A DNA stretch of 64,000 bases from Candidatus Omnitrophota bacterium (GTDB taxonomy: Bacteria > Omnitrophota > Gorgyraeia > Gygaellales > Profunditerraquicolaceae): NCBI GenBank assembly GCA_043812955.1, contig JBDRLN010000061.1:7231-71230 (forward strand), written 5' to 3'. The first letter of the stretch is position 1. Every line of letters begins with the position of its first letter. The notes beneath the pieces are model-generated. The model worked only from the letters and a program-made list of their open reading frames with translations, ran no database searches and was not told the origin of the DNA. Of the stretch, positions 2,080 to 60,895 are shown piece after piece. The position numbers and the translations under genes are program-made.

Positions 2080-2103
2080 TACTTTTTTAAATCGCCAGGA
2101 ATA

Positions 2104-2157
2104 GGGTTAGAATTATTTTTTCTATTTTCTACTCTGGTAAAAAATAATTCTGACCCC
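2104..2157. repeat. Family-A long palindromic element, copy 1 (GGGTTAGAATTATTTTTT ... AAAAAATAATTCTGACCCC)
   Basis: 18/19-bp inverted arms around a 17-nt loop. It shares arms with copies at 4409-4463 and 6133-6186. It lies between the lpd stop and the groES promoter. Confidence 0.8.
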
Positions 2158-2160
2158 ATT

Positions 2161-4381: not shown

Positions 4382-4408
4382 AATTCTCTACCTATACCTG
4401 TAAGATAT

Positions 4409-4463
4409 GGGGTCAGAATTATTTTTTACTTACATTTAGAATAAAAAAAATAATTCTGACCCC
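4409..4463. repeat. Family-A palindromic element, copy 2 (perfect 19-bp arms)
   Basis: GGGGTCAGAATTATTTTTT (4409-4427), a 17-nt loop, AAAAAATAATTCTGACCCC (4445-4463). It lies between the icd-like stop and the mdh start. Confidence 0.85.
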
Positions 4464-4470
4464 ATTATTT

Positions 4471-5566: not shown

Positions 5567-5597
5567 CACCCCGTAGGTGTATTACACCTACGGGGTG
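5567..5597. repeat. Family-B hairpin, copy 1 (CACCCCGTAGGTGT-att-ACACCTACGGGGTG)
   Basis: Perfect 14-bp stem with a 3-nt loop, 14 nt upstream of the icd-like ATG. A twin lies at 18387-18417. Confidence 0.85.
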
Positions 5598-6123: not shown

Positions 6124-6132
6124 AACTTTATT

Positions 6133-6186
6133 GGGGTCAGAATTATTTCTTCTTTATTATACTTAGAAAAAAATAATTCTGACCCC
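6133..6186. repeat. Family-A palindromic element, copy 3
   Basis: GGGGTCAGAATTATTTCTTC ... GAAAAAAATAATTCTGACCCC, with one mismatch. It lies between the pilT stop and the leuD start. Confidence 0.8.
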
Positions 6187-6193
6187 AATTCCC

Positions 6194-12835: not shown

Positions 12836-12853
12836 TTTATTTCCTCCTTATAT

Positions 12854-12920
12854 CGGTTTTCGGTTTACGGTTTTCAGTTTACGGTATTGGCCGCTAACCG
12901 ATAACCGCTAACCGATAACC
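12854..12920. repeat. Family-D element, copy 1: tandem CGGTTTACGG-type units followed by complementary CCGATAACCG-type units
   Basis: cggttttcggtttacggttttcagtttacgg ... ccgctaaccgataaccgctaaccgataacc. Left and right halves are imperfect reverse complements. It sits just upstream of the rpsM SD. Confidence 0.75.
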
Positions 12921-12924
12921 TTAG

Positions 12925-13038
12925 CTATCCTTGTCTTTGTTTGTGTTTAGGATTAGAACATATAACCCTAACAATACCTCTACGCTTAATAATCTTACAC
13001 TTATCGCATATCTTCCTGATTGATGCTTTTACTTTCAC
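12925..13038 (-). CDS. rpmJ: Ribosomal protein L36 (GTG start)
   Basis: Not in the ORF track (37 aa). Translates to [43 protein letters not shown] lies upstream of the GTG. Confidence 0.85.
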
Positions 13039-13085
13039 TTGAGTTTTCTCTCCATTCTTTACTATAATCTATACCTCTACCTATT

Positions 13086-16204: not shown

Positions 16205-16467
16205 TAATAACCTCTGGTATAATCTTCAGGTATAAATCTTAGGGATTATACCTGATTACTGAGATTAATAAAGATTACTGCGATTAAACCATTAATCGCC
16301 TTATTAGACAACTTTGTTACTAAAGTTTAGTAATAACCCTATCGGTTATAGAGTCTCTATTTTTAATCTCTGTAATCTCACTTTTCCCGCTAGTCGCGGG
16401 ATCCCGCCAGATAAGAGATTATTGAGCGGGATAATCATTGTAATCAGACATCCTTACTTCTTTCTCA
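16205..16467 (-). repeat. Family-C structured spacer (263 nt) between rplO and secY
   Basis: It shares its whole architecture with the rpsL-rpsG spacer at 29797-29961 (8-bp GACATCCT...AGGATGTC hairpin, then AGATTACAGAGAT, then an ~85-nt block). A 100-nt insert with overlapping GC palindromes is unique to this copy. Confidence 0.8.
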
Positions 16468-18386: not shown

Positions 18387-18417
18387 CACCCCGTAGGTGG
18401 AGTCCACCTACGGGGTG
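18387..18417. repeat. Family-B hairpin, copy 2 (CACCCCGTAGGTGG-agt-CCACCTACGGGGTG)
   Basis: Perfect 14-bp stem between rpsH and rplF. It differs from copy 1 by a compensatory T:A to G:C change at the loop-closing pair. Confidence 0.85.
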
Positions 18418-19993: not shown

Positions 19994-20147
19994 GTCTTTT
20001 CCTTATATAGTTATTGCTGAAAAACCCAGCAATAACTTTATTTTGGAGATTTTTAAAAAGATTACAGAGATTTATCCGAGGATGTTTAATCTTGTAATCT
20101 GTATTTTAATCGCTGAAATCAAGTTAACACTGCTTTTTCAGTGTTAA
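19994..20147 (-). repeat. Structured rplN-rplX spacer: twin 10-bp hairpins (GTTAACACTG/CAGTGTTAAC and GTTATTGCTG/CAGCAATAAC) flanking family-C-like GATTACAG motifs
   Basis: Seen directly. The first hairpin follows the rplN stop and is followed by UUGAUUU. The second ends 16 nt before the rplX ATG. Confidence 0.7.
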
Positions 20148-20516: not shown

Positions 20517-20794
20517 TTTACCTCATCCTTTAATTCAACATTGGGTATCTTGAATTTTTTCAAGATCTCCAGGACCCGGAAACGTTTATCTTTAGATATA
20601 GGCCTGGTCTCTTCGATCTTAACCGTATCGCCTACCTTAGCCATATTATGCTCATCATGGGCCTTAAATTTATTAAACCGTTTCATGATCTTGCCGTACT
20701 TGGGATGCTTACTAAGATGCATAATCTTCACTATAACCGTTTTCATCATTTTGTCGCTGATAACCGTGCCTGTAAATTCTTTGCGCTTACCCAT
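20513..20794 (-). CDS. rpsQ: Ribosomal protein S17
   Basis: 93 aa, S17 OB fold, overlaps rplN by 4 nt. Confidence 0.9.
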
Positions 20795-20828
20795 TTATTT
20801 TCTCTTTCTTTCTTTTGAATAATCCGTA

Positions 20829-21014
20829 TTATTTCTTTTCGCTTAAAATTGTTTTTATCCTGACAATATCCCTTTTAATTAATGAGAACCTGTGCGGTTT
20901 TTCTACCTGGCCGCCGTAACGCTGTAGGTTCATCTTATACAAATCCTCTTTAAGGGTTTTTTCTTTATTTATTAATTCTTCTCTGGATAGATTACGCAGC
21001 TCTTGTATCTTCAC
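20829..21014 (-). CDS. rpmC: Ribosomal protein L29 (GTG start)
   Basis: MKIQELRNLSREEL... The start codon GTG is at rc 21012-21014, embedded in the family-E hairpin arm. Confidence 0.85.
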   Translation of the reverse strand: MKIQELRNLSREELINKEKTLKEDLYKMNLQRYGGQVEKPHRFSLIKRDIVRIKTILSEKK

Positions 21015-21110
21015 CCCGCACCTTCCTTTTTTTCATAATTCTAAAACAGTTTGCCTTAAGGAATCTAATCTTTTGGAAGGTGCGGGGTTCATCCAGCACC
21101 TTCCTACTTA
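21014..21110 (-). repeat. Family-E element, copy 1: 13-bp GC hairpin (CCCCGCACCTTCC / GGAAGGTGCGGGG) plus a third CACCTTCC copy
   Basis: Plus 21014-21026 is the reverse complement of 21075-21087, and the motif recurs at 21097-21104. The mRNA 3' arm contains the rpmC SD and the first base of its GUG. Confidence 0.8.
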
Positions 21111-21518
21111 TTATTTATGCGCCCTGGTTACAAATTTAGTTTTAAATGGTAATTTATAAGCTATTAACCTGAAACACCTGCGGGCATACTCTTCCGGAAT
21201 ACCGCTTAACTCAAATAGTATTCTGCCTCTTTTAATAACACATACCCAATGATCAATATCGCCTTTGCCTTTACCCATACGTACTTCTGCCGGTTTTTTG
21301 GTTATAGATTTATCCGGAAAAACCCTAATCCATAGCCTCCCGCCTTTATGTAATTGCCTGGTCAGAACTACCCGACAGGCCTCAATCGTATTGTTCTTAA
21401 GCCAGCCGTTAACTAAAACCTTTAATCCAAACTCACCAAATGCCAGCTCCGCACCCCTGGTGGCTATTCCCCGGCGCTGTCCTTTTTGCAACTTCCTATA
21501 TTTTACTCTTTTGGGCAT
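21111..21518 (-). CDS. rplP: Ribosomal protein L16
   Basis: L16 homology from [17 protein letters not shown]. The track start at 21527 (MAL...) is also possible. Confidence 0.85.
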
Positions 21519-21556
21519 TAAAGCCATATCAATCTCGCTTTTGGTTTGTTTTTATT

Positions 21557-22589: not shown

Positions 22590-22598
22590 TTGATTATT

Positions 22599-22725
22599 AG
22601 ATAGTAGTTAGTAGGCAATATGTAGGAATAACCTAATCCCTTTTTTGCTACTTACATTGTTATTTATTTTTTTTAGTAGGCTTCTTTGGGATACCCTAAT
22701 CCCTACCTACTACATGCTACATACT
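22599..22725. repeat. Family-F element, copy 1 (CCCTAAT...CCTACCTACTACAT[G/A]CTA core with GTAG/CTAC-rich inverted arms)
   Basis: A 140-bp spacer between rpsS and rplV, which are normally adjacent genes. The arms are agtagttagtaggcaatatgtagg ... cctacctactacatgctacatact, and ccctaatccc appears twice. Confidence 0.75.
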
Positions 22726-22729
22726 GTTT

Positions 22730-29240: not shown

Positions 29241-29313
29241 GGGACGGTTCTCAAACCAAAGCTAAAGTGTCCCTTTTTTGGGGACAGTTTAAGATCAGTT
29301 TCAGAACCGTCCC
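29241..29313 (-). repeat. Family-G nested hairpin element, copy 1 (outer GGGACGGTTCT/AGAACCGTCCC, inner TGTCCC-tttttt-GGGACA)
   Basis: It fills the rpsG-fusA spacer (29233-29325) and ends 8 nt before the fusA ATG. Its homologue at 55376-55448 is about 85% identical. Confidence 0.8.
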
Positions 29314-29796: not shown

Positions 29797-29961
29797 TTAT
29801 TCTCTTTCCTGGTATAATCATCAGGTATAAATTTTGGGGATTATACCTGATTACTGAGATTAATAAAGATTGCAGCGATTAAACTTCTGTCTTTTATCTC
29901 TGTAATCTGCCTTTTAATCACTGTAATCAGACATCCTCATTACTTCTTATTACAGGATGTC
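29797..29961 (-). repeat. Family-C structured spacer (165 nt) between rpsL and rpsG
   Basis: Homologous to 16205-16467. The last ~85 nt before the rpsG ATG are ~93% identical to the last ~85 nt before the secY ATG. Confidence 0.8.
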
Positions 29962-52915: not shown

Positions 52916-53030
52916 CCTAGTAGGTAGTATTTAGGGTTTCCCTAATACCTATCTATTAACTACCCTATACTGAATCAGTAGGTAGTATTTAATAAAAACC
53001 CTAACTCCTACCTACTACATACTAAATACT
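52916..53030. repeat. Family-F element, copy 2
   Basis: agtaggtagtattta repeated directly (52919-52933 and 52977-52991), and it ends with ccctaactcctacctactacatactaaatact. It sits between hisI and the trpE-like gene. Confidence 0.75.
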
Positions 53031-53374: not shown

Positions 53375-53420
53375 CCCTAATTTGCCCTACCTACTACATA
53401 CTACCTACTATCTACTAAAT
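53375..53420. repeat. Family-F element, copy 3
   Basis: ccctaatttgccctacctactacatactacctactatctactaaat. It sits between hisF and hisI. Confidence 0.7.
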
Positions 53421-53421
53421 A

Positions 53422-54192
53422 TTATATTCGCATTTCTACTCCCTTACTGCGCAGATATTCTTTAACCTGTTTAATGCTAAATTCTCCGTAATGAAAAAGC
53501 GAAGCGGCCAAACAGGCATCCGCGCCAGCCTTATCTAAAATATCAAAAAAATGCTCCATTTTTCCCGCGCCGCCTGAAGCTATAATCGGGATGTTTACAC
53601 TATCGCTGACTGCCTTGGTTAAATCCAGATCATAGCCTTCCTTAGTGCCGTCATAATCCATACTAGTCAAAAGTATCTCGCCCGCACCTAATTCCGCAGC
53701 CTGTTTAGCCCAATTTACAGCATCCAGGTCAACAGGCGTTCTTCCGCCATTAATAAACACTTCCCACCCAGCCTCTGCGTGCAGGGGCCGGGTCTTTTTA
53801 GCGTCTATAGCGACAACAATACACTGGCTGCCGAATCTATCCGACGCCTCTTTAATCAATCCCGGATATTTAACTGCCGCGCTATTTATCGAAACTTTAT
53901 CCGCTCCGGCATTTAACAGGTCCCGGATATCGTTAATATCCCGTATGCCTCCGCCGACAGTAAAAGGCATAAATATATTTATGGCTATATCTTTCACTAA
54001 ATCAATCAGCGTCTTCCTATTTTCAAAACTGGCGGTAATATCTAGAAAAACCAGTTCATCCGCCTGCTGACAATCATAAACCCTAGCTACTTCTACAGGA
54101 TCACCAGCGTCACGCAGGCCTAAAAATTTTATCCCCTTGACTACCCTGCCATCTTTTATATCCAAACAGGGAATAATACGCTTAGTTAACAT
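53422..54192 (-). CDS. hisF: Imidazole glycerol phosphate synthase cyclase subunit
   Basis: 256 aa, [14 protein letters not shown]... Confidence 0.9.
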
Positions 54193-55359: not shown

Positions 55360-55375
55360 ATTTCCATATCAGGCA

Positions 55376-55448
55376 GGGACGGTTCTCAAGCCAAAGCTAA
55401 ACTGTCCCCAAAAAAGGGACACTTTAAGATCAAGTTAAGAACCGTCCC
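55376..55448 (-). repeat. Family-G nested hairpin element, copy 2 (central palindrome inverted relative to copy 1)
   Basis: The outer GGGACGGTTCT / AGAACCGTCCC arms match copy 1. The centre reads TGTCCCCAAAAAAGGGACA, against TGTCCCTTTTTTGGGGACA in copy 1. It fills the hisH-hisA spacer. Confidence 0.8.
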
Positions 55449-55454
55449 TGCATT

Positions 55455-56105
55455 TTATAATTCAACGAAGTTTTTCAATATTTTCAGTCCCACAGCCTGG
55501 CTTTTCTCAGGATGAAACTGCACACCGATTATATTATCCTGCCAGACCACAGAAGCAAAATTAATCCCATAATCAGTAGTGGCGGCAACTACGGCTTTAT
55601 CCTCAGGCTGCGGATAATAAGAATGGCAGAAATAAACATAAGGCTTCTCTGACAGCCCCCTTAATAACGGGCATTCCTTTATCCCTGGCCCCTTATCACC
55701 TTCCTGTCGCTGAGGCAGACTTATCCCTGTATTCAACTGGTTCCAACCCATATGCGGGACTTTTAAACCCCTACCAGGAACAAATTTTTTTACCTCTCCT
55801 CTTAATACTCCTAAGCCTTTAACGCCATTAGATTCTTCGCTAGTTTCAAATAACAGCTGCATGCCTAAACATATTCCTAAAAATATCTTCTTATGTTTTA
55901 TAGCATCAATAACAGCTGAAATTAAACCCTGCCTATCCATCTCGGATACAGCGTCAGCAAAAGCCCCCACACCGGGAAGGACTATCTTTTCGCATTTATT
56001 CAATACTTCAGGCTTATTAGTCAATAAAACCTTAGCGCCTAAAGACTTTAGAGCCTTTTGAACGCTATGGATGTTGCCCATTCCATAATCAATTATCCCG
56101 ATCAT
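55455..56105 (-). CDS. hisH: Imidazole glycerol phosphate synthase glutamine amidotransferase subunit
   Basis: 216 aa. GICLGMQLL catalytic Cys and the HPEKS motif. Confidence 0.9.
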   Translation of the reverse strand: MIGIIDYGMGNIHSVQKALKSLGAKVLLTNKPEVLNKCEKIVLPGVGAFADAVSEMDRQGLISAVIDAIKHKKIFLGICLGMQLLFETSEESNGVKGLGVLRGEVKKFVPGRGLKVPHMGWNQLNTGISLPQRQEGDKGPGIKECPLLRGLSEKPYVYFCHSYYPQPEDKAVVAATTDYGINFASVVWQDNIIGVQFHPEKSQAVGLKILKNFVEL

Positions 56106-56919: not shown

Positions 56920-58146
56920 TTACTCAAACCTGGCTTTAACCGATTCCAAATGCTGACCTAATCCTTCAATACTGGCAATTTTCTCCAGAGGCTCTCTTAA
57001 TTTCTCTAAATATTTTTTAGAATAGCCAATGACATGACTGCTTTTTACAAAATCCACGGCTGATAAACCGGAGAAAAATCTGGCAGTCCCTCCGGTTGGC
57101 AATACATGGCTTGGGCCGGCAACATAATCACCGATAGCTGTCGGGCTATATGGCCCCAGAAAAATTGCTCCGGCATTACGGATACCTTTTAATAAACGCT
57201 GGTAATTCTTTACTAGGATCTCTAAATGTTCCGGGGCAATCCTATTAGAAATCTCTACTGCTTCATCCAAATTTTTAGTTAAGATTATAAACCCGTTTAC
57301 ATCAACAGCCTTTGCTTTTATCTCCTTAGCTAAACCTTTAGAATTTGTAACCAGTATAGCCAGGCCATTAACGTGCTCGGCCTGGGCTTTTAAGTCAGCG
57401 ATAATGAATTTCGGGTCGCTGGAACGATTAGCGATTATTACCAGCTCAGTTGGTCCGGCGATCATATCAATATCCACCTGGCCAAAAACCTGCCGCTTTG
57501 CTTCATTAACATAAACATTACCAGGGCCGACGATTTTATCTACCCTGGGTATCGTCTTGGTCCCGTAAGCTAAAGCGGCTATCCCCTGAGCCCCGCCTAT
57601 CCGGTAGATCTCATCAACTTTTAAAAGATTAGCTACTACTAAAATATGAGGATTAATAAACCCTTGTTTATTCGGAGGGCTGATTAACACTATTTTTTTA
57701 ACTCCTGCGATTTTAGCCGGAAGCACAGTCATATAAACCGTAGAGACCAAAGGCGCCGTGCCTGCCGGTATATAAACCCCTAATTTATCGATTGGCTGGT
57801 AATTCTCCCCCAGGATTAAGCCTTCGCTGTCTTTTATCCTCCAAGATTTTTTCAGGGTCCTGCGGTAAAAACGATTGATATTATCAATGATTATTTTGAG
57901 GCTAGAGACAAAATTCGGGCTGATATTCTGGTAGGCGCCACTGACTTCGATAGCTGAAACCTTAATCTGACGGCCGGTTAACTTCACCTTGTCAAATTTA
58001 CGGGTATATTTTAAAACCGCTTCATCGCCCAGCAGGCGAACGTCATCGATTATCTGCCTAACCTTGTCTTCTACCCTCCTGGAACGGATTAGCCCCCGGT
58101 TATAAATCTTTTCTAATTTTTGGGAGTTCGAGCGGATTATCTTCAC
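56920..58146 (-). CDS. hisD: Histidinol dehydrogenase (GTG start)
   Basis: 408 aa. Start GTGAAGATA, preceded by GAAGGTGCGGG, the same module as rpmC. Confidence 0.85.
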   Translation of the reverse strand: MKIIRSNSQKLEKIYNRGLIRSRRVEDKVRQIIDDVRLLGDEAVLKYTRKFDKVKLTGRQIKVSAIEVSGAYQNISPNFVSSLKIIIDNINRFYRRTLKKSWRIKDSEGLILGENYQPIDKLGVYIPAGTAPLVSTVYMTVLPAKIAGVKKIVLISPPNKQGFINPHILVVANLLKVDEIYRIGGAQGIAALAYGTKTIPRVDKIVGPGNVYVNEAKRQVFGQVDIDMIAGPTELVIIANRSSDPKFIIADLKAQAEHVNGLAILVTNSKGLAKEIKAKAVDVNGFIILTKNLDEAVEISNRIAPEHLEILVKNYQRLLKGIRNAGAIFLGPYSPTAIGDYVAGPSHVLPTGGTARFFSGLSAVDFVKSSHVIGYSKKYLEKLREPLEKIASIEGLGQHLESVKARFE

Positions 58147-58225
58147 CCCGCACCTTCTTTCTTGATAAGAATTCCAGCACCATTTATCTTATAATCATTT
58201 AATTTTCTAGACGGTGCGATATTCA
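58141..58225 (-). repeat. Family-E element, copy 2 (cttcaccccgcaccttc spanning the hisD start; ttccagcacc; partial complement acggtgcg)
   Basis: An 18-mer identical to 21009-21026, and ggtgctgga also shared with copy 1. The upstream complementary arm is degenerate (6 bp: CGCACC/GGUGCG). Confidence 0.65.
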
Positions 58226-60895
58226 TTATAGCGCCTCAATAATCTTAATTAATTCCGCAAATGCTTGTGAAAAATTTTCAGGCCTAGTTCCGCCAGCCTG
58301 GGCAAAATCACTCCGTCCTCCGCCGCTTCCACCTAATACCGATGCTACCTGTTGCACGAATTTACCGGCGCTTAAACCCTGGTCAACTAAATCTTTAGTT
58401 AAACCGATAACTAGTATTGCCTTGTTATCTCTGACTGACCCTAAAGCAATGATCGCGTTATCAGTCTTTTGCTTGATCAGATCTACGGTTTTCCTCAGTA
58501 TATCCATCGATGAATCCTCGATAACTTTAGTGATGACTTTTTTTCCCTTTATTAACATTGCCTCCTGAACCAAACTGTCAACCCCAGAGGTTGCCACGGT
58601 TAATTTCTGAGAACTAAGCTGTTTCTCCATATCCCTGGCGCTAGAGAGCCTTTTTTGGACTTCCGAAACGATTTTTTCCATAGGCGCAGTTAAAATCGAA
58701 ACCAGCGATTCAATCACCTCTTCCTGTTTTTTAATCTCCTGATATGCCCCTAAACCCGTACGCGCCTCTATCCTTCTTACTCCGCTGGCAACCGAACCCT
58801 CGCTGATTATTTTAAATAAACCGATTGAGCCGGTATTATCCAAATGCGTCCCCGCGCAAAGCTCCTTAGAAACACCCTCAACTGAAACCACCCTGACTTT
58901 ATCATCATATTTCTCGCCAAAAAAAGCCAGGGCCCCAAGTTTTTTAGCCTGGATTAAAGACATCTCTTTCTTTTGCACTGGATGATTCTGGAGAATAAAA
59001 TCATTTACTAATTTCTCAATCCTATCCAACTCTCCTTTATCTATATTTTTAAAATGCGTAAAATCAAAACGCATCCTCTCCTGAGCAACCAATGAACCCT
59101 GTTGCTGCACATGAGGGCCTAAAACTTTTCTTAAAACTGCCTGCAAAAGATGGGTGGCGGTGTGATTCCTGGCTACCGACATCCGAAAATCATTATTCAG
59201 CTGCGCTAAAACTTCGTCGCCTTTTTTAAATTTACCCTGCTTAACTTTACCAAGATGGGCTGTCACTTCGCCTAATTTAACGCTGTTTGAGACTGCGAAT
59301 ATATTTTTACCCTTTACTATTTCACCGATATCTCCGACCTGCCCTCCGGACTCGCCATAAAAAACAGTCTGATCCAGAATAATAACTGCTTCTTCACCAG
59401 GCAATACCTGATTTTTCTCAATATATTCATTATCTAATATAATCAGTATCGAGGCATCAGTTAAATCTTTTGTATACCCCAAGAATTTAGTATTCTTAAC
59501 TCTGAGGGTAACTTGGCCACCAGAAAAAACATCGCCTTTCATTTTACTAAATGATTTTGAAAGGTTCTTCTGTTTATCAAGCTCATTTTGAAAAGATGCT
59601 TCAAAATTTTCGTTTACCTTGATATGCTTTTTATATAGCTCATCCTTGGTTATTTCCAAAGGGATGCCGTTAGTATCATATAATCTATAGCCGGAAATAC
59701 CTAAAGCCCCAGAGGTAGTTGAGCTAGCGCAAATATATCCTTCTATGTTTGGATCATTTTCTAGCCCTGTTTTAACTTTCTTAATTTCACTATCTACTAA
59801 AGCGCTACTCAAACGCAAGGTATTTATAAAATTATTTTCTTCGGCCAGAATAACCTCAGCAATATCTTCCCGGCGTTTATCCAGATCCGGATATGGATTC
59901 TTCATCACCGCTGATAATACCGGCACCAGGGTATAAAGAAATGCGGATTTTAAACCCATACCCCTTAAATGCATAATTGATTTACGGATCAATTTCCTGA
60001 CCACATAACCCCTGCCTTCATTTGAAGGCATGACGCCGTCGTATATAGCAAAAACTATTGCCCGTAAATGATCAGAAATAGCGTATAAATCTTTAGCGCC
60101 GGGTGATTTCTTTGCTGAGTTGCGGATTTCGTTGATTATCGGTTGAAACAAATCAGTCTCAAAATTATTACTTTTACCTTGCATAATCCGGGCTAACCTC
60201 TCTAATCCCATTCCGGTATCAATATTTTTTTTAGGCAAAGGTTCCAGCAGGCCGCCATCTTTACGGTTAAACTGAGTAAACACTAAGTTCCAAACCTCAA
60301 CAAATCTTCCACAGCTGCAAGCAGGCGAACATTCGGTCTTTTTACAGCCAATATCAGGGCCAAAATCCAGGAATATCTCCGAGCAGGGACCGCACGGCCC
60401 GTTAGGCCCTTTTTGTTTAGCCTCTGCCGGCCAAAAATTATCTTTATCCCCAAGTTTAACTATTTTTTTTCCCGGAATCTTAATTTTATCTCTCCAGATC
60501 TTATAGGCTTCATCATCATCCTGGTAAACCGAAACCCAAAGGTCTCCTTCTTTAATATTTAGCTCTTTAGTTAGAAACTCCCAGGCCCAGACAATCGCGT
60601 CTTCTTTAAAATAATCTCCGAAAGAAAAATTTCCCAGCATTTCAAAAAATGTATGGTGAGAATCAGTCTTGCCCACTTTATCCAAATCATCGGTGCGCAG
60701 GCAACGCTGGGAGCTAGCTGCCCGGGTAAAACCCGTAAGCTGACCCAGAAACTGTTTTTTAAACTGGTTCATCCCCGCCGGCGTAAATAAAACAGTCGGG
60801 TCATCCTTAGGCACTAAAGAGTCGCTTTCAACTAGCTTATGCTTTTTGGATTTAAAAAAGGTTAAAAATTTTTCTCTTAATATATCTGTCTTCAT
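58226..60895 (-). CDS. alaS: Alanine--tRNA ligase
   Basis: 889 aa. Class II core, editing domain HxxxH...CxxxH, C-terminal DHHA1. Confidence 0.9.
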   Translation of the reverse strand: MKTDILREKFLTFFKSKKHKLVESDSLVPKDDPTVLFTPAGMNQFKKQFLGQLTGFTRAASSQRCLRTDDLDKVGKTDSHHTFFEMLGNFSFGDYFKEDAIVWAWEFLTKELNIKEGDLWVSVYQDDDEAYKIWRDKIKIPGKKIVKLGDKDNFWPAEAKQKGPNGPCGPCSEIFLDFGPDIGCKKTECSPACSCGRFVEVWNLVFTQFNRKDGGLLEPLPKKNIDTGMGLERLARIMQGKSNNFETDLFQPIINEIRNSAKKSPGAKDLYAISDHLRAIVFAIYDGVMPSNEGRGYVVRKLIRKSIMHLRGMGLKSAFLYTLVPVLSAVMKNPYPDLDKRREDIAEVILAEENNFINTLRLSSALVDSEIKKVKTGLENDPNIEGYICASSTTSGALGISGYRLYDTNGIPLEITKDELYKKHIKVNENFEASFQNELDKQKNLSKSFSKMKGDVFSGGQVTLRVKNTKFLGYTKDLTDASILIILDNEYIEKNQVLPGEEAVIILDQTVFYGESGGQVGDIGEIVKGKNIFAVSNSVKLGEVTAHLGKVKQGKFKKGDEVLAQLNNDFRMSVARNHTATHLLQAVLRKVLGPHVQQQGSLVAQERMRFDFTHFKNIDKGELDRIEKLVNDFILQNHPVQKKEMSLIQAKKLGALAFFGEKYDDKVRVVSVEGVSKELCAGTHLDNTGSIGLFKIISEGSVASGVRRIEARTGLGAYQEIKKQEEVIESLVSILTAPMEKIVSEVQKRLSSARDMEKQLSSQKLTVATSGVDSLVQEAMLIKGKKVITKVIEDSSMDILRKTVDLIKQKTDNAIIALGSVRDNKAILVIGLTKDLVDQGLSAGKFVQQVASVLGGSGGGRSDFAQAGGTRPENFSQAFAELIKIIEAL

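What the first reader, a model, noticed from the sequence alone, without database searches (positions are those of the whole stretch)
21012..21110. Family E: perfect 13-bp GC hairpin that buries the SD and GUG start of rpmC (L29)
Plus 21014-21026 (ccccgcaccttcc) and 21075-21087 (ggaaggtgcgggg) are exact reverse complements with a 48-nt loop. A third CACCTTCC copy lies at 21097-21104.

On the mRNA the 3' arm reads GGAAGGUGCGGGG followed by UG. It therefore contains the only SD-like run and the first base of the GUG start codon of L29. The 5' arm begins 23 nt after the rplP stop.

This is a classic architecture for a translational operator, thermosensor or coupling device. It is not a feature I know from described r-protein operons.
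Basis: partly seen in the sequence, partly recalled or inferred. Interest (0 to 1): 0.66.

Follow-up and report, generated by a model that had tools for sequence, protein, structure and literature searches.

The report
Mobile hairpin cassette at L29 start
The perfect hairpin that covers the ribosome-binding site of ribosomal protein L29 is real. It is the pair of inverted ends of a small repeated, apparently mobile DNA cassette that sits on gene start codons in these uncultured bacteria, not a regulator built for L29.

Summary
A perfect 14-bp inverted repeat (21013-21026 / 21075-21088, 48-nt loop) covers the SD and the G of the rpmC GUG (MFE -39 kcal/mol, z = -5.2).

The L29-operator reading is only partly supported. 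The hairpin is the terminal inverted repeat of a ~76-nt cassette. The cassette also lies at alaS-hisD in this window (58146-58221). In relatives (Ca. Omnitrophota) it lies at hisF-hisI, upstream of a P-II gene and at rplN-rplX.

Start-site copies are all written A|TGAA|[YCCCGCACCTTCY...RGAAGGTGCGGGR]|TGAA. More distant relatives show the empty sites as plain ATGA start/stop overlaps. The cassette supplies the SD and the first base of the new start codon. The old ATG survives as the start of a mini-ORF that runs through the 5' arm. In intact copies this ORF ends in a UGA overlapping the new start.

The three closest relatives with data lack the cassette at rplP-rpmC. Copy A is more like a hisD copy in another genome (86%) than the rpmC copy in L001 (70%).

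Best reading: a young copy of a MITE-like element. L29 translation probably depends on ribosomes melting the stem from upstream. That step is inferred, not shown.

The parts
21111..21527 (-). rplP (L16) coding sequence; stop TAA at 21113-21111
   Evidence: ORF list; 93% identical to L16 of L001
21092..21112 (-). Remnant of the right end of an older cassette copy (AATAAGTAGGAAGGTGCTGGA). It carries SD1 (GGAAGGTG, 21104-21097) for the relic ATG.
   Evidence: 27-nt direct repeat of the rpmC SD/start (D1). It matches the right ends of the cassette (AATAAGAAGGAAGGTGCGGGG in L167) and the L29 RBS of L092 (GAGAAGGTGCTGGATGAA).
21088..21091 (-). Left TGAA flank (putative target-site duplication). With A21092 it forms the relic start ATGAA.
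   Evidence: The same flank is present in all 8 start-site copies. Empty sites carry a single ATGAA.
21033..21092 (-). Mini-ORF A, MNPAPSKRLDSLRQTVLEL*. Codons 2-6 are the 5' arm. The stop TGA (21035-21033) is in frame with rpmC and 18 nt before its GUG.
   Evidence: Translation. It is shortened relative to the 27-codon ORF of other copies by two 1-nt deletions.
21014..21087 (-). Cassette copy A, 74 nt, from CCCCGCACCTTCC to GGAAGGTGCGGGG. Its last base, G21014, is the first base of the rpmC GUG.
   Evidence: nhmmer E = 1e-21; covariance model 92.6 bits; alignments A2 and A5
21075..21088 (-). 5' arm on the mRNA (ACCCCGCACCUUCC), which is complementary to the SD
21013..21026 (-). 3' arm on the mRNA (GGAAGGUGCGGGGU), covering the SD of rpmC and the G and U of its GUG
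21010..21013 (-). Right TGAA flank. It holds the TG of the GUG start and the first two bases of codon 2.
20829..21014 (-). rpmC (L29) coding sequence with a GTG start
   Evidence: ORF list; N-terminus aligns with relatives
58146..58221 (-). Cassette copy B (76 nt) between alaS and hisD. The right arm (SD) is intact and the left arm is decayed (TATCGCACCGTCT). G58146 is the first base of the hisD GTG.
   Evidence: E = 1e-22; 95 bits. In the fold the SD is not masked.
58143..58226 (-). Mini-ORF B, 27 codons (MNIAPSRKLNDYKINGAGILIKKEGAG*). Its ATG overlaps the alaS stop (TAATG) and its TGA overlaps the hisD GTG (GTGA).

Best explanation
Shown. The hairpin is the pair of 13-nt terminal inverted repeats, plus one flanking A-U pair, of a roughly 76-nt non-coding repeat cassette of MITE type. 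The family occurs in a narrow clade of Ca. Omnitrophota.

Start-site copies are written A|TGAA|[YCCCGCACCTTCY ... RGAAGGTGCGGGR]|TGAA. They sit exactly where more distant relatives have a plain ATGA(A) start or start/stop overlap.

The right repeat is an SD (GGAAGGUG). The last base of the element (G or A) plus the TG of the right TGAA makes the new start codon. This is why rpmC and hisD start with GTG here. The left TGAA keeps the old ATG, which now opens a mini-ORF running into the element. Because the ends are inverted repeats, the left end is necessarily complementary to the SD, so the transcript folds into a stem that masks the new SD and start.

Copy A at rplP-rpmC is a young copy, with perfect arms, and is closest to a hisD copy in another genome. 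It lies next to the remnant of an older copy.

Inferred. The insertion is tolerated because ribosomes starting at the relic ATG, or arriving from the upstream gene, translate through the 5' arm. This melts the stem and exposes the SD and GUG. In intact copies these ribosomes terminate on a UGA overlapping the new start. In copy A they terminate 18 nt before it. L29 synthesis would therefore be coupled to upstream translation.

The stem is a by-product of the element's ends, not a regulator evolved for L29.
For: Repeat family.
- There are two copies in the window (nhmmer E = 1e-21 and 1e-22).
- Further copies lie at hisF-hisI in L161 and L163, upstream of a P-II gene in L178, and at rplN-rplX in L120.
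- Related short hairpins lie in rpsC-rplP spacers and in L010.

Empty versus filled sites.
- In the hisD-81% relatives L176 and L177, alaS/hisD read CTAAAATGAAAATC and TTAATATGAAAATC, and hisF/hisI reads TTTATGAAAAAA.
- Filled sites carry TGAA on both sides.
- Most relatives have a 0-15 nt rplP-rpmC gap.

Mobility or turnover.
- The cassette is absent from rplP-rpmC in L168, L179 and L180 (rplP nt identity to the window 91.6, 86.3 and 88.7%). It is present in the more distant L001 (83.2%).
- Copy A is 86% identical to the hisD copy of L167 and only 70% identical to the rpmC copy of L001.

Pairing is kept.
- 92.7% of cells are paired, against 46-56% when the partner is slid.
- Three pairs show changes on both sides. 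One of them is the first base of the start codon (G with C; A with U).
- Copies with good arms fold at z = -4.8 to -6.7.

The ORF is kept open.
- Five of seven SD-type copies are open to a UGA overlapping the start. The chance value is 0.04-0.18 per copy.
- These five element lengths, and that of the shorter L120 copy (also open), are 76, 97 and 46 nt, all 1 mod 3.
- The other two frames carry 2-5 stops.

Selection pattern.
- Right arms (the SD) are intact in every copy.
- Left arms decay (copy B) or re-pair with a middle arm (L161 and L163 at hisD), which frees the SD.

Cost of opening. Opening the rpmC initiation site costs 13.5 kcal/mol, against a median of about 6.5 for 30 starts in the window.
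Against: - No transposase or autonomous element with these ends was seen, and whole genomes could not be scanned. Only about 9 distinct copies at 5-7 loci are known.
- The short rpsC-rplP hairpin and the L010 copy lack TGAA flanks.
- TGAA on the right is partly forced by a start codon followed by a Lys or Asn codon.
- The right end closely resembles L29 ribosome-binding sites in several more distant relatives (L003, L092, L102, L106, L122). The family may therefore have been born at this locus and spread by recombination rather than by transposition.
- In copy A the rplP stop is 22 nt from the stem, out of reach of a terminating ribosome. The mini-ORF start itself costs 19.8 kcal/mol to open. 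The relay is therefore least convincing for the very copy in the finding.
- pN/pS of the mini-ORF is 0.2-0.7 on very few sites, so there is no firm evidence that it is translated.
- No expression data exist.
Confidence: 0.62

Rival explanations
1. Selfish or neutral insertion with no working relay. The cassette landed on the rpmC start, and the stem simply lowers L29 translation or is opened by breathing. The cell tolerates this. With time the left arm decays.
For: - Older copies lose the anti-SD arm while keeping the SD (copy B; L092; L161 and L163 at hisD).
- The cassette is absent in the closest relatives.
- The mini-ORF of copy A is frameshifted.
- Both starts are costly to open.
- From my own knowledge, L29 is dispensable in E. 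coli.
Against: - The frame is kept open to a UGA overlapping the start in five of seven copies, and element lengths are held at 1 mod 3 across 46, 76 and 97 nt variants.
- All copies have the same orientation.
- Insertions into essential operons would be removed if they were strongly polar.
Confidence: 0.22
2. A dedicated translational operator, thermosensor or feedback site that controls L29.
For: - The stem masks the SD and GUG.
- The stem is kept, with a C-G to U-A change, in L001 at the same locus.
- A three-way competition between SD1, the anti-SD arm and SD2 is possible. The local hairpin with SD1 folds at -20.1 kcal/mol.
Against: - The same cassette precedes unrelated genes: hisD, hisI, a P-II gene and rplX.
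- It is absent at this locus in L168, L179 and L180.
- There is no Rfam match.
- The stem is perfect and GC-rich, unlike known thermometers.
- Decayed copies serve as a plain RBS.
Confidence: 0.05
3. The family is not a transposon. It arose by an inverted duplication of the rpmC RBS and spread to other Met-Lys gene starts by recombination or gene conversion between similar start regions.
For: - L29 ribosome-binding sites like GAAGGTGC are widespread at this locus in relatives at 72-82% L16 protein identity.
- Copies at hisD and rpmC share GTGAAGATA beyond the element.
- No cognate IS has been seen.
Against: - Empty sites at hisD and hisI are clean ATGA overlaps with no similarity to the cassette beyond TGAA.
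- TGAA lies on both sides.
- Copies at different loci in different genomes are 83-86% alike.
Confidence: 0.08
4. An RNA processing or stability element. The long duplex would be an RNase III site, or a 3'-protective hairpin, that splits or stabilises the operon transcript.
For: - It is a stable 14-bp duplex inside a polycistronic mRNA.
- Other repeat hairpins fill many spacers of this operon.
- Correia and ERIC elements are processed in this way, from my own knowledge and from Delihas 2011 (PMC3184786).
Against: - 14 bp is short for RNase III.
- Cleavage would remove the SD from rpmC.
- No terminator-like site is present.
- This reading does not explain the TGAA flanks, the start-codon base or the open frame.
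Confidence: 0.03

Closest known systems
Bacterial MITEs (for example Correia/NEMIS, Nezha, MITEAba12); Delihas 2011, PMC3184786
   Same: - Under 100-nt non-coding unit with terminal inverted repeats.
- Short direct repeats at the flanks.
- Several dispersed copies, with filled and empty sites among relatives.
- Folds into a long stem in RNA.
- Some carry ORFs fused to host frames or carry expression signals.
   Different: - All well-formed copies sit on a start codon, in one orientation.
- The right repeat is itself the SD, and the last base of the element is the first base of the new start codon.
- Length is held at 1 mod 3, so an internal ORF bridges the old start to a stop overlapping the new one.
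- No partner transposase is known.
Neisseria REP2 repeats and Borrelia IR sequences (Delihas 2011, PMC3184786)
   Same: Dispersed repeats lying immediately upstream of genes. They supply the ribosome-binding site and the start codon, and they have internal stem-loops.
   Different: - REP2 has no terminal inverted repeats and carries a promoter. Here no promoter-like site lies on the mRNA strand.
- Here the stem masks the supplied SD.
- Here copies lie inside operons at start/stop overlaps.
Translational coupling through a masked RBS (MS2 coat-replicase, rpmI-rplT in E. coli) and leader-peptide attenuation (ermC); from my own knowledge
   Same: A downstream SD and start are locked in a stem whose other strand lies inside an upstream reading frame. 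Ribosomes translating that frame unmask the site.
   Different: - Those are fixed, locus-specific structures. This one is carried by a repeat element and recurs before unrelated genes.
- No stalling signal or effector is evident.
- Nothing here has been tested experimentally.
Ribosomal-protein autoregulatory leaders (S10/L4, L20, L10 and others in Rfam)
   Same: A structured RNA in an r-protein operon that touches a translation start.
   Different: There is no Rfam match, no conservation at the locus among the nearest relatives, and no rRNA mimicry was examined.

Membership tests
MITE (miniature inverted-repeat transposable element) | Terminal inverted repeats at both ends of a short unit that lacks a transposase | tested here: met
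   The ends are 13-nt repeats (YCCCGCACCTTCY / RGAAGGTGCGGGR). Units are 46-97 nt, too short to encode a transposase.
MITE (miniature inverted-repeat transposable element) | Direct duplication of the target at both flanks | tested here: inconclusive
   TGAA lies on both sides of all 8 start-site copies, and once in the empty sites. However, it is partly forced by a start codon followed by AA. It is absent from the short rpsC-rplP hairpin and from the L010 copy.
MITE (miniature inverted-repeat transposable element) | Multiple dispersed copies, with filled and empty sites in related genomes | tested here: met
   - Start-site copies occur at five loci (rplP-rpmC, alaS-hisD, hisF-hisI, upstream of a P-II gene, rplN-rplX); short hairpins with the same arms lie in two further spacers (rpsC-rplP; rpsH-rplF in L010).
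- Empty alaS/hisD and hisF/hisI junctions occur in L176 and L177.
- At rplP-rpmC the cassette is present in the window and L001 but absent in L168, L179 and L180.
- Non-orthologous copies are more alike than orthologous ones.
MITE (miniature inverted-repeat transposable element) | A cognate autonomous IS with the same ends | not tested
   About 1 Mb of fetched loci contains no such pair at IS-like spacing.
Ribosomal-protein autoregulatory leader or operator | Conservation of the structure at the same locus across related genomes | tested here: not met
   It is absent in L168, L179 and L180. Most of about 130 relatives with a detectable L29 have a 0-15 nt spacer.
Ribosomal-protein autoregulatory leader or operator | Match to a curated leader family | tested here: not met
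   Rfam 15 gave no match at gathering score. The best hits at E <= 10 scored 15-20 bits, against gathering scores of 42-65.
RNA thermometer (ROSE, fourU type) | SD masked by a weak, imperfect stem that melts within the physiological range | tested here: not met
   The stem is 14 perfect pairs, 9 of them G-C. The hairpin folds at -34.9 kcal/mol at 37 C. There is no Rfam thermometer match.
Neisseria REP2-type repeat | The repeat supplies the RBS and start codon to the gene downstream | tested here: met
   The right end is GGAAGGTGCGGG followed by G/A-TG in every start-site copy, and the downstream protein N-termini align with relatives.
Neisseria REP2-type repeat | The repeat carries a promoter and has no terminal inverted repeats | tested here: not met
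   No sigma-70-like site lies on the mRNA strand inside the element. Terminal inverted repeats are present.
Leader-peptide translational attenuator (ermC type) | A leader ORF overlapping one strand of a stem that masks the downstream SD | tested here: met
   Mini-ORF codons 2-6 are the 5' arm in all copies.
Leader-peptide translational attenuator (ermC type) | A programmed stall or effector that switches between alternative pairings | not testable with these tools
   Alternative partners for the 5' arm exist: SD1 in copy A, and a middle arm in L001 and copy B. No stalling motif or ligand can be assessed in silico.

The most novel reading that the evidence does not exclude
The cassette would be a transposable 'translational-coupling adaptor'. 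It would be a MITE lineage adapted to, or targeted at, ATGA(A) start/stop junctions of compact operons. It would survive there because it brings its own SD and the first base of a new start codon. It would also bring a frame-preserving bridge ORF that hands ribosomes from the old start to the new one while melting its own terminal hairpin. Insertion would convert ATG starts into GTG starts and could tune the stoichiometry of operon products, including L29.
Probability: 0.3. Interest if true: 0.7.

Novelty: new variant of a known kind. Interest (0 to 1): 0.5.

Why it matters
If the reading holds, small mobile repeats can colonise the tightest places in a compact genome: the overlapping stop/start junctions inside essential operons. 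They would do so by rebuilding the ribosome-binding site and start codon they destroy.

This would explain odd GTG starts and expanded spacers in Omnitrophota r-protein operons. It is also a warning for annotation. A striking SD-masking hairpin in front of one gene can be the footprint of a repeat element rather than a dedicated regulator.

The cassette also offers a natural, compact module (anti-SD arm, bridge ORF, SD, start) for testing how strictly translation of a downstream gene can be tied to that of an upstream one.

Tried and rejected
Searches that led nowhere.
- Rfam on the window and on 20700-21400 gave only two tRNAs and sub-threshold noise.
- Exact-protein look-ups of the window's L16 and L29 found nothing on record.
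A doubled-peptide profile then found one called ORF, P0247, which gave the P-II locus.
- Extra arm-like 9-mers in the window are at chance level: 16 found against 11 expected.
- Literature searches for rplP/rpmC spacers, for MITE plus translational coupling, and for Omnitrophota repeats found nothing describing this.

Readings considered and rejected.
- Intrinsic terminator or internal promoter: no terminator-like site, and no promoter-like site on the mRNA strand within the cassette.
- GGAAGGTGC as the general SD of this organism: it occurs only at the two cassette loci in 64 kb, and other genes use GGAGG-type sites.
- N-terminal extension of L29: an in-frame TGA lies six codons upstream of the GUG.
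- A conserved functional peptide: pN/pS is 0.2-0.7 on about 9-17 synonymous sites, so only the openness of the frame looks constrained.
- The single compensatory change between the window and L001 as proof of in-situ selection: the two copies belong to different subfamilies (70% identity, against 86% to a hisD copy). The double change may therefore have been inherited from different master copies.

Full report
**Setting**

The window carries the S10/spc ribosomal-protein operon on the minus strand. The organism is an uncultured member of Ca. Omnitrophota; the best L16 matches are Omnitrophota MAGs, at up to 93% identity. rplP ends with TAA at 21113-21111, and rpmC (L29) starts with GTG at 21014.

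**1.

- The arms 21013-21026 and 21075-21088 are 14 nt long, 100% complementary and 48 nt apart.
- On the mRNA the 3' arm is GGAAGGUGCGGGG(U). Its last G is the first base of the GUG.
- Region 21000-21125 folds at -39.1 kcal/mol, against -22.5 +/- 3.2 for shuffles (z = -5.2). The hairpin alone folds at -34.9 (z = -6.7).
- The GUG is the true start. Relatives read ATG AAA ACA CAA GAG CTG at the aligned position, and an in-frame TGA lies six codons upstream.
- The third copy (GGAAGGTGCTGGATGAA, 21104-21088) is real. It precedes an ATG that opens a 19-codon mini-ORF whose codons 2-6 are the 5' arm.

**2. It is a repeat, not a one-off**

- The motif search turned up AGAAGGTGCGGGG at 58146-58158.
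- Reading that region showed an 85-90 nt stretch between alaS and hisD that aligns end to end with the rplP-rpmC spacer (nhmmer E = 1e-22 and 1e-21).
- Both stretches end in GAAGGTGCGGGGTGAAGATA, which is the SD, the GTG and the next two codons of the downstream gene.
- GAAGGTGC occurs nowhere else in the 64 kb.
- Fetching relatives through hisD, S3 and the mini-ORF peptide gave more copies:
  - alaS-hisD in L167, with perfect arms;
  - two variant hairpins at alaS-hisD in L161 and L163;
  - hisF-hisI in L161 and L163;
  - upstream of a P-II gene in L178;
  - a 46-nt member at rplN-rplX in the distant L120;
  - short hairpins with the same arms in rpsC-rplP spacers and in L010.

**3. Anatomy of the cassette**

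- Every start-site copy reads A|TGAA|[YCCCGCACCTTCY ... RGAAGGTGCGGGR]|TGAA.
- In relatives with 81% hisD identity, the same junctions are plain four-base overlaps or near-abutting junctions. alaS/hisD reads CTAAAATGAAAATC and TTAATATGAAAATC; hisF/hisI overlaps in L177 (TTTATGAAAAAA) and is separated by a 2-nt gap in L176.
- The rplP-rpmC junction of most relatives is TAA(N0-15)ATGAAR.
- Filled sites therefore look like an insertion with a TGAA duplication.
- The left TGAA keeps the old ATG and, at the his loci, the upstream stop.
- The last base of the element plus the TG of the right TGAA is the new start. Copies ending in G have GTG starts and C at the first position. Copies ending in A have ATG starts and T at the first position.
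- Five of seven SD-type copies carry an open frame from the relic ATG to a TGA overlapping the new start (GTGA or ATGA).
- Those five, together with the shorter open L120 copy, have element lengths of 76, 97 and 46 nt, all 1 mod 3. Shuffled loops stay open in only 4-18% of trials. The other two frames hold 2-5 stops.
- The peptide itself is weakly constrained (pN/pS 0.2-0.7 on few sites).

**4. Turnover**

- rplP nucleotide identity to the window is 91.6% for L168, 88.7% for L180, 86.3% for L179 and 83.2% for L001.
- The cassette sits at rplP-rpmC only in the window and in L001. The three intermediate genomes carry unrelated ACRCGGAT repeats there, with an ATG start.
- Copy A is 86% identical to the hisD copy of L167 and 83% of L167's copy matches the hisI copy of L161. 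Copy A is only 70% identical to the rpmC copy of L001.
- The three similar copies all have perfect 14-bp arms, which fits a recently active subfamily.
- The 21 nt between the rplP stop and the relic ATG (AATAAGTAGGAAGGTGCTGGA) match the cassette's right end and the L29 RBS of L092. L092's spacer is a decayed copy (nhmmer E = 1.5e-4). An older insertion therefore preceded this one.

**5. What is selected**

- Across eight copies the stem is paired in 92.7% of cells, against 46-56% for slid partners. Three pairs changed on both sides.
- This shows the ends are kept complementary. It cannot tell an RNA requirement from a DNA requirement for matching transposon ends. The double changes may also have been inherited from different master copies.
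- Right arms (the SD) are intact everywhere.
- Left arms decay (copy B has 4 of 13 mismatches, and its SD is free in the fold; z = -0.4) or pair with a middle arm instead (L161 and L163 at hisD).
- L092 uses the right end as an unmasked RBS.
- The masking stem therefore looks like a by-product that is tolerated when young and lost with age.

**6. Likely working (inferred)**

- In clean insertions the upstream stop abuts or overlaps the relic ATG. A ribosome finishing the upstream gene, or restarting at the relic ATG, reads through the 5' arm. It unwinds the stem and stops on the UGA that overlaps the new start. This is classical coupling by termination and reinitiation on an unmasked site.
- In copy A the chain is looser:
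  - the rplP stop is 22 nt from the stem;
  - restart needs SD1 and the ATG at 21092;
  - the mini-ORF stops 18 nt before the GUG.
- Computed costs to open the -18..+10 region are 13.5 kcal/mol for rpmC and 19.8 for the mini-ORF start. The median over 30 starts in the window is about 6.5. fusA, rplC and hisB, two of which follow other repeat hairpins (shown directly for fusA), are as high or higher.
- With the 5' arm held single-stranded, the rpmC cost falls to 9.2.
- L29 output is therefore predicted to depend on upstream translation, or simply to be reduced. I cannot separate these two outcomes in silico.

**7. Comparison and novelty**

- The unit meets the structural criteria of a MITE: inverted ends, flanking direct repeats, dispersed copies, and filled versus empty sites. 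No partner IS is known.
- It works like Neisseria REP2 or Borrelia IR repeats in donating an RBS and a start codon (Delihas 2011, PMC3184786). Unlike REP2 it has inverted ends and no promoter.
- Repeat-borne ORFs at operon ends are also known for pneumococcal BOX elements (PMC3049150).
- I found no description of this particular combination: a start-codon site, an SD built into the repeat, donation of the start-codon base, and a frame-preserving bridge ORF.
- I rate it a new variant of a known kind. I rate the original operator reading as only partly supported.

Noticed in passing
window 29241-29313 and 55366-55458: A second hairpin repeat family (GGGACGGTTCTCAAACCAAAGCTAAAGTGTCCC and its inverse). 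One copy fills the rpsG-fusA spacer directly before the fusA start. That start has the highest computed opening cost of 30 starts (23 kcal/mol).
   Followed up: partly
window 2100-2160, 4407-4465, 6130-6189: Three copies of a 21-22 bp near-perfect palindrome, ATGGGGTCAGAATTATTTTTT / AAAAAATAATTCTGACCCCAT, with a 16-17 nt loop.
   Followed up: no
window 5567-5597 and 18387-18417: Two 15-bp perfect palindromes, CACCCCGTAGGTG(T/G)A / T(A/C)CACCTACGGGGTG. The second lies in the rpsH-rplF spacer.
   Followed up: no
window 29797-29961, 19994-20147, 16205-16467: The rpsL-rpsG, rplN-rplX and rplO-secY spacers are expanded to 154-263 nt. They share modules (gattacag / agattaaaa runs, and in the rpsL-rpsG and rplO-secY spacers ggtataatcc...ttatacctga). 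The r-protein operon is heavily colonised by repeats.
   Followed up: no
window 22590-22729, 53385-53425, 52918-53017: Runs of tagtaggtag-type repeats lie in the rpsS-rplV spacer and around hisI. The hisF-hisI junction holds this repeat in the window, whereas relatives L161 and L163 hold the cassette there.
   Followed up: partly
L168 7137-7179; L179 1888-1996; L180 1412-1517: The closest relatives carry ACRCGGAT direct and inverted repeats in the rplP-rpmC spacer. This junction is therefore a hot spot for several unrelated repeat families. L004, L010, L088 and L089 hold yet other hairpin repeats there.
   Followed up: partly
L170 10701-10751; L180 about 930-975: A short hairpin of about 40 nt has the same arms (A[C/T]CCCGCACCTTCC ... 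GGGAAGGTG[A/C]GGGAT). It lies in the rpsC-rplP spacer, 25 nt before the rplP start, and is absent from the window. It has no TGAA flanks and is not used as an SD.
   Followed up: partly
L161 9920-10009; L163 2949-3042; L088 rplP-rpmC spacer: A related hairpin subfamily, CCCCGC(T/A/C)CTTTTGG / CCAAAAGGGCGGGG. At alaS-hisD it pairs the 5' arm with a middle arm and leaves the hisD SD free. L163 still keeps a 28-codon bridge ORF ending in ATGA.
   Followed up: partly
window 12836-13085: The 250-nt stretch between infA and rpsM holds rpmJ (L36), apparently with a GTG start ([21 protein letters not shown]...). It is followed by cggttagcggttatcggttagcgg and ccgtaaac repeats.
   Followed up: no
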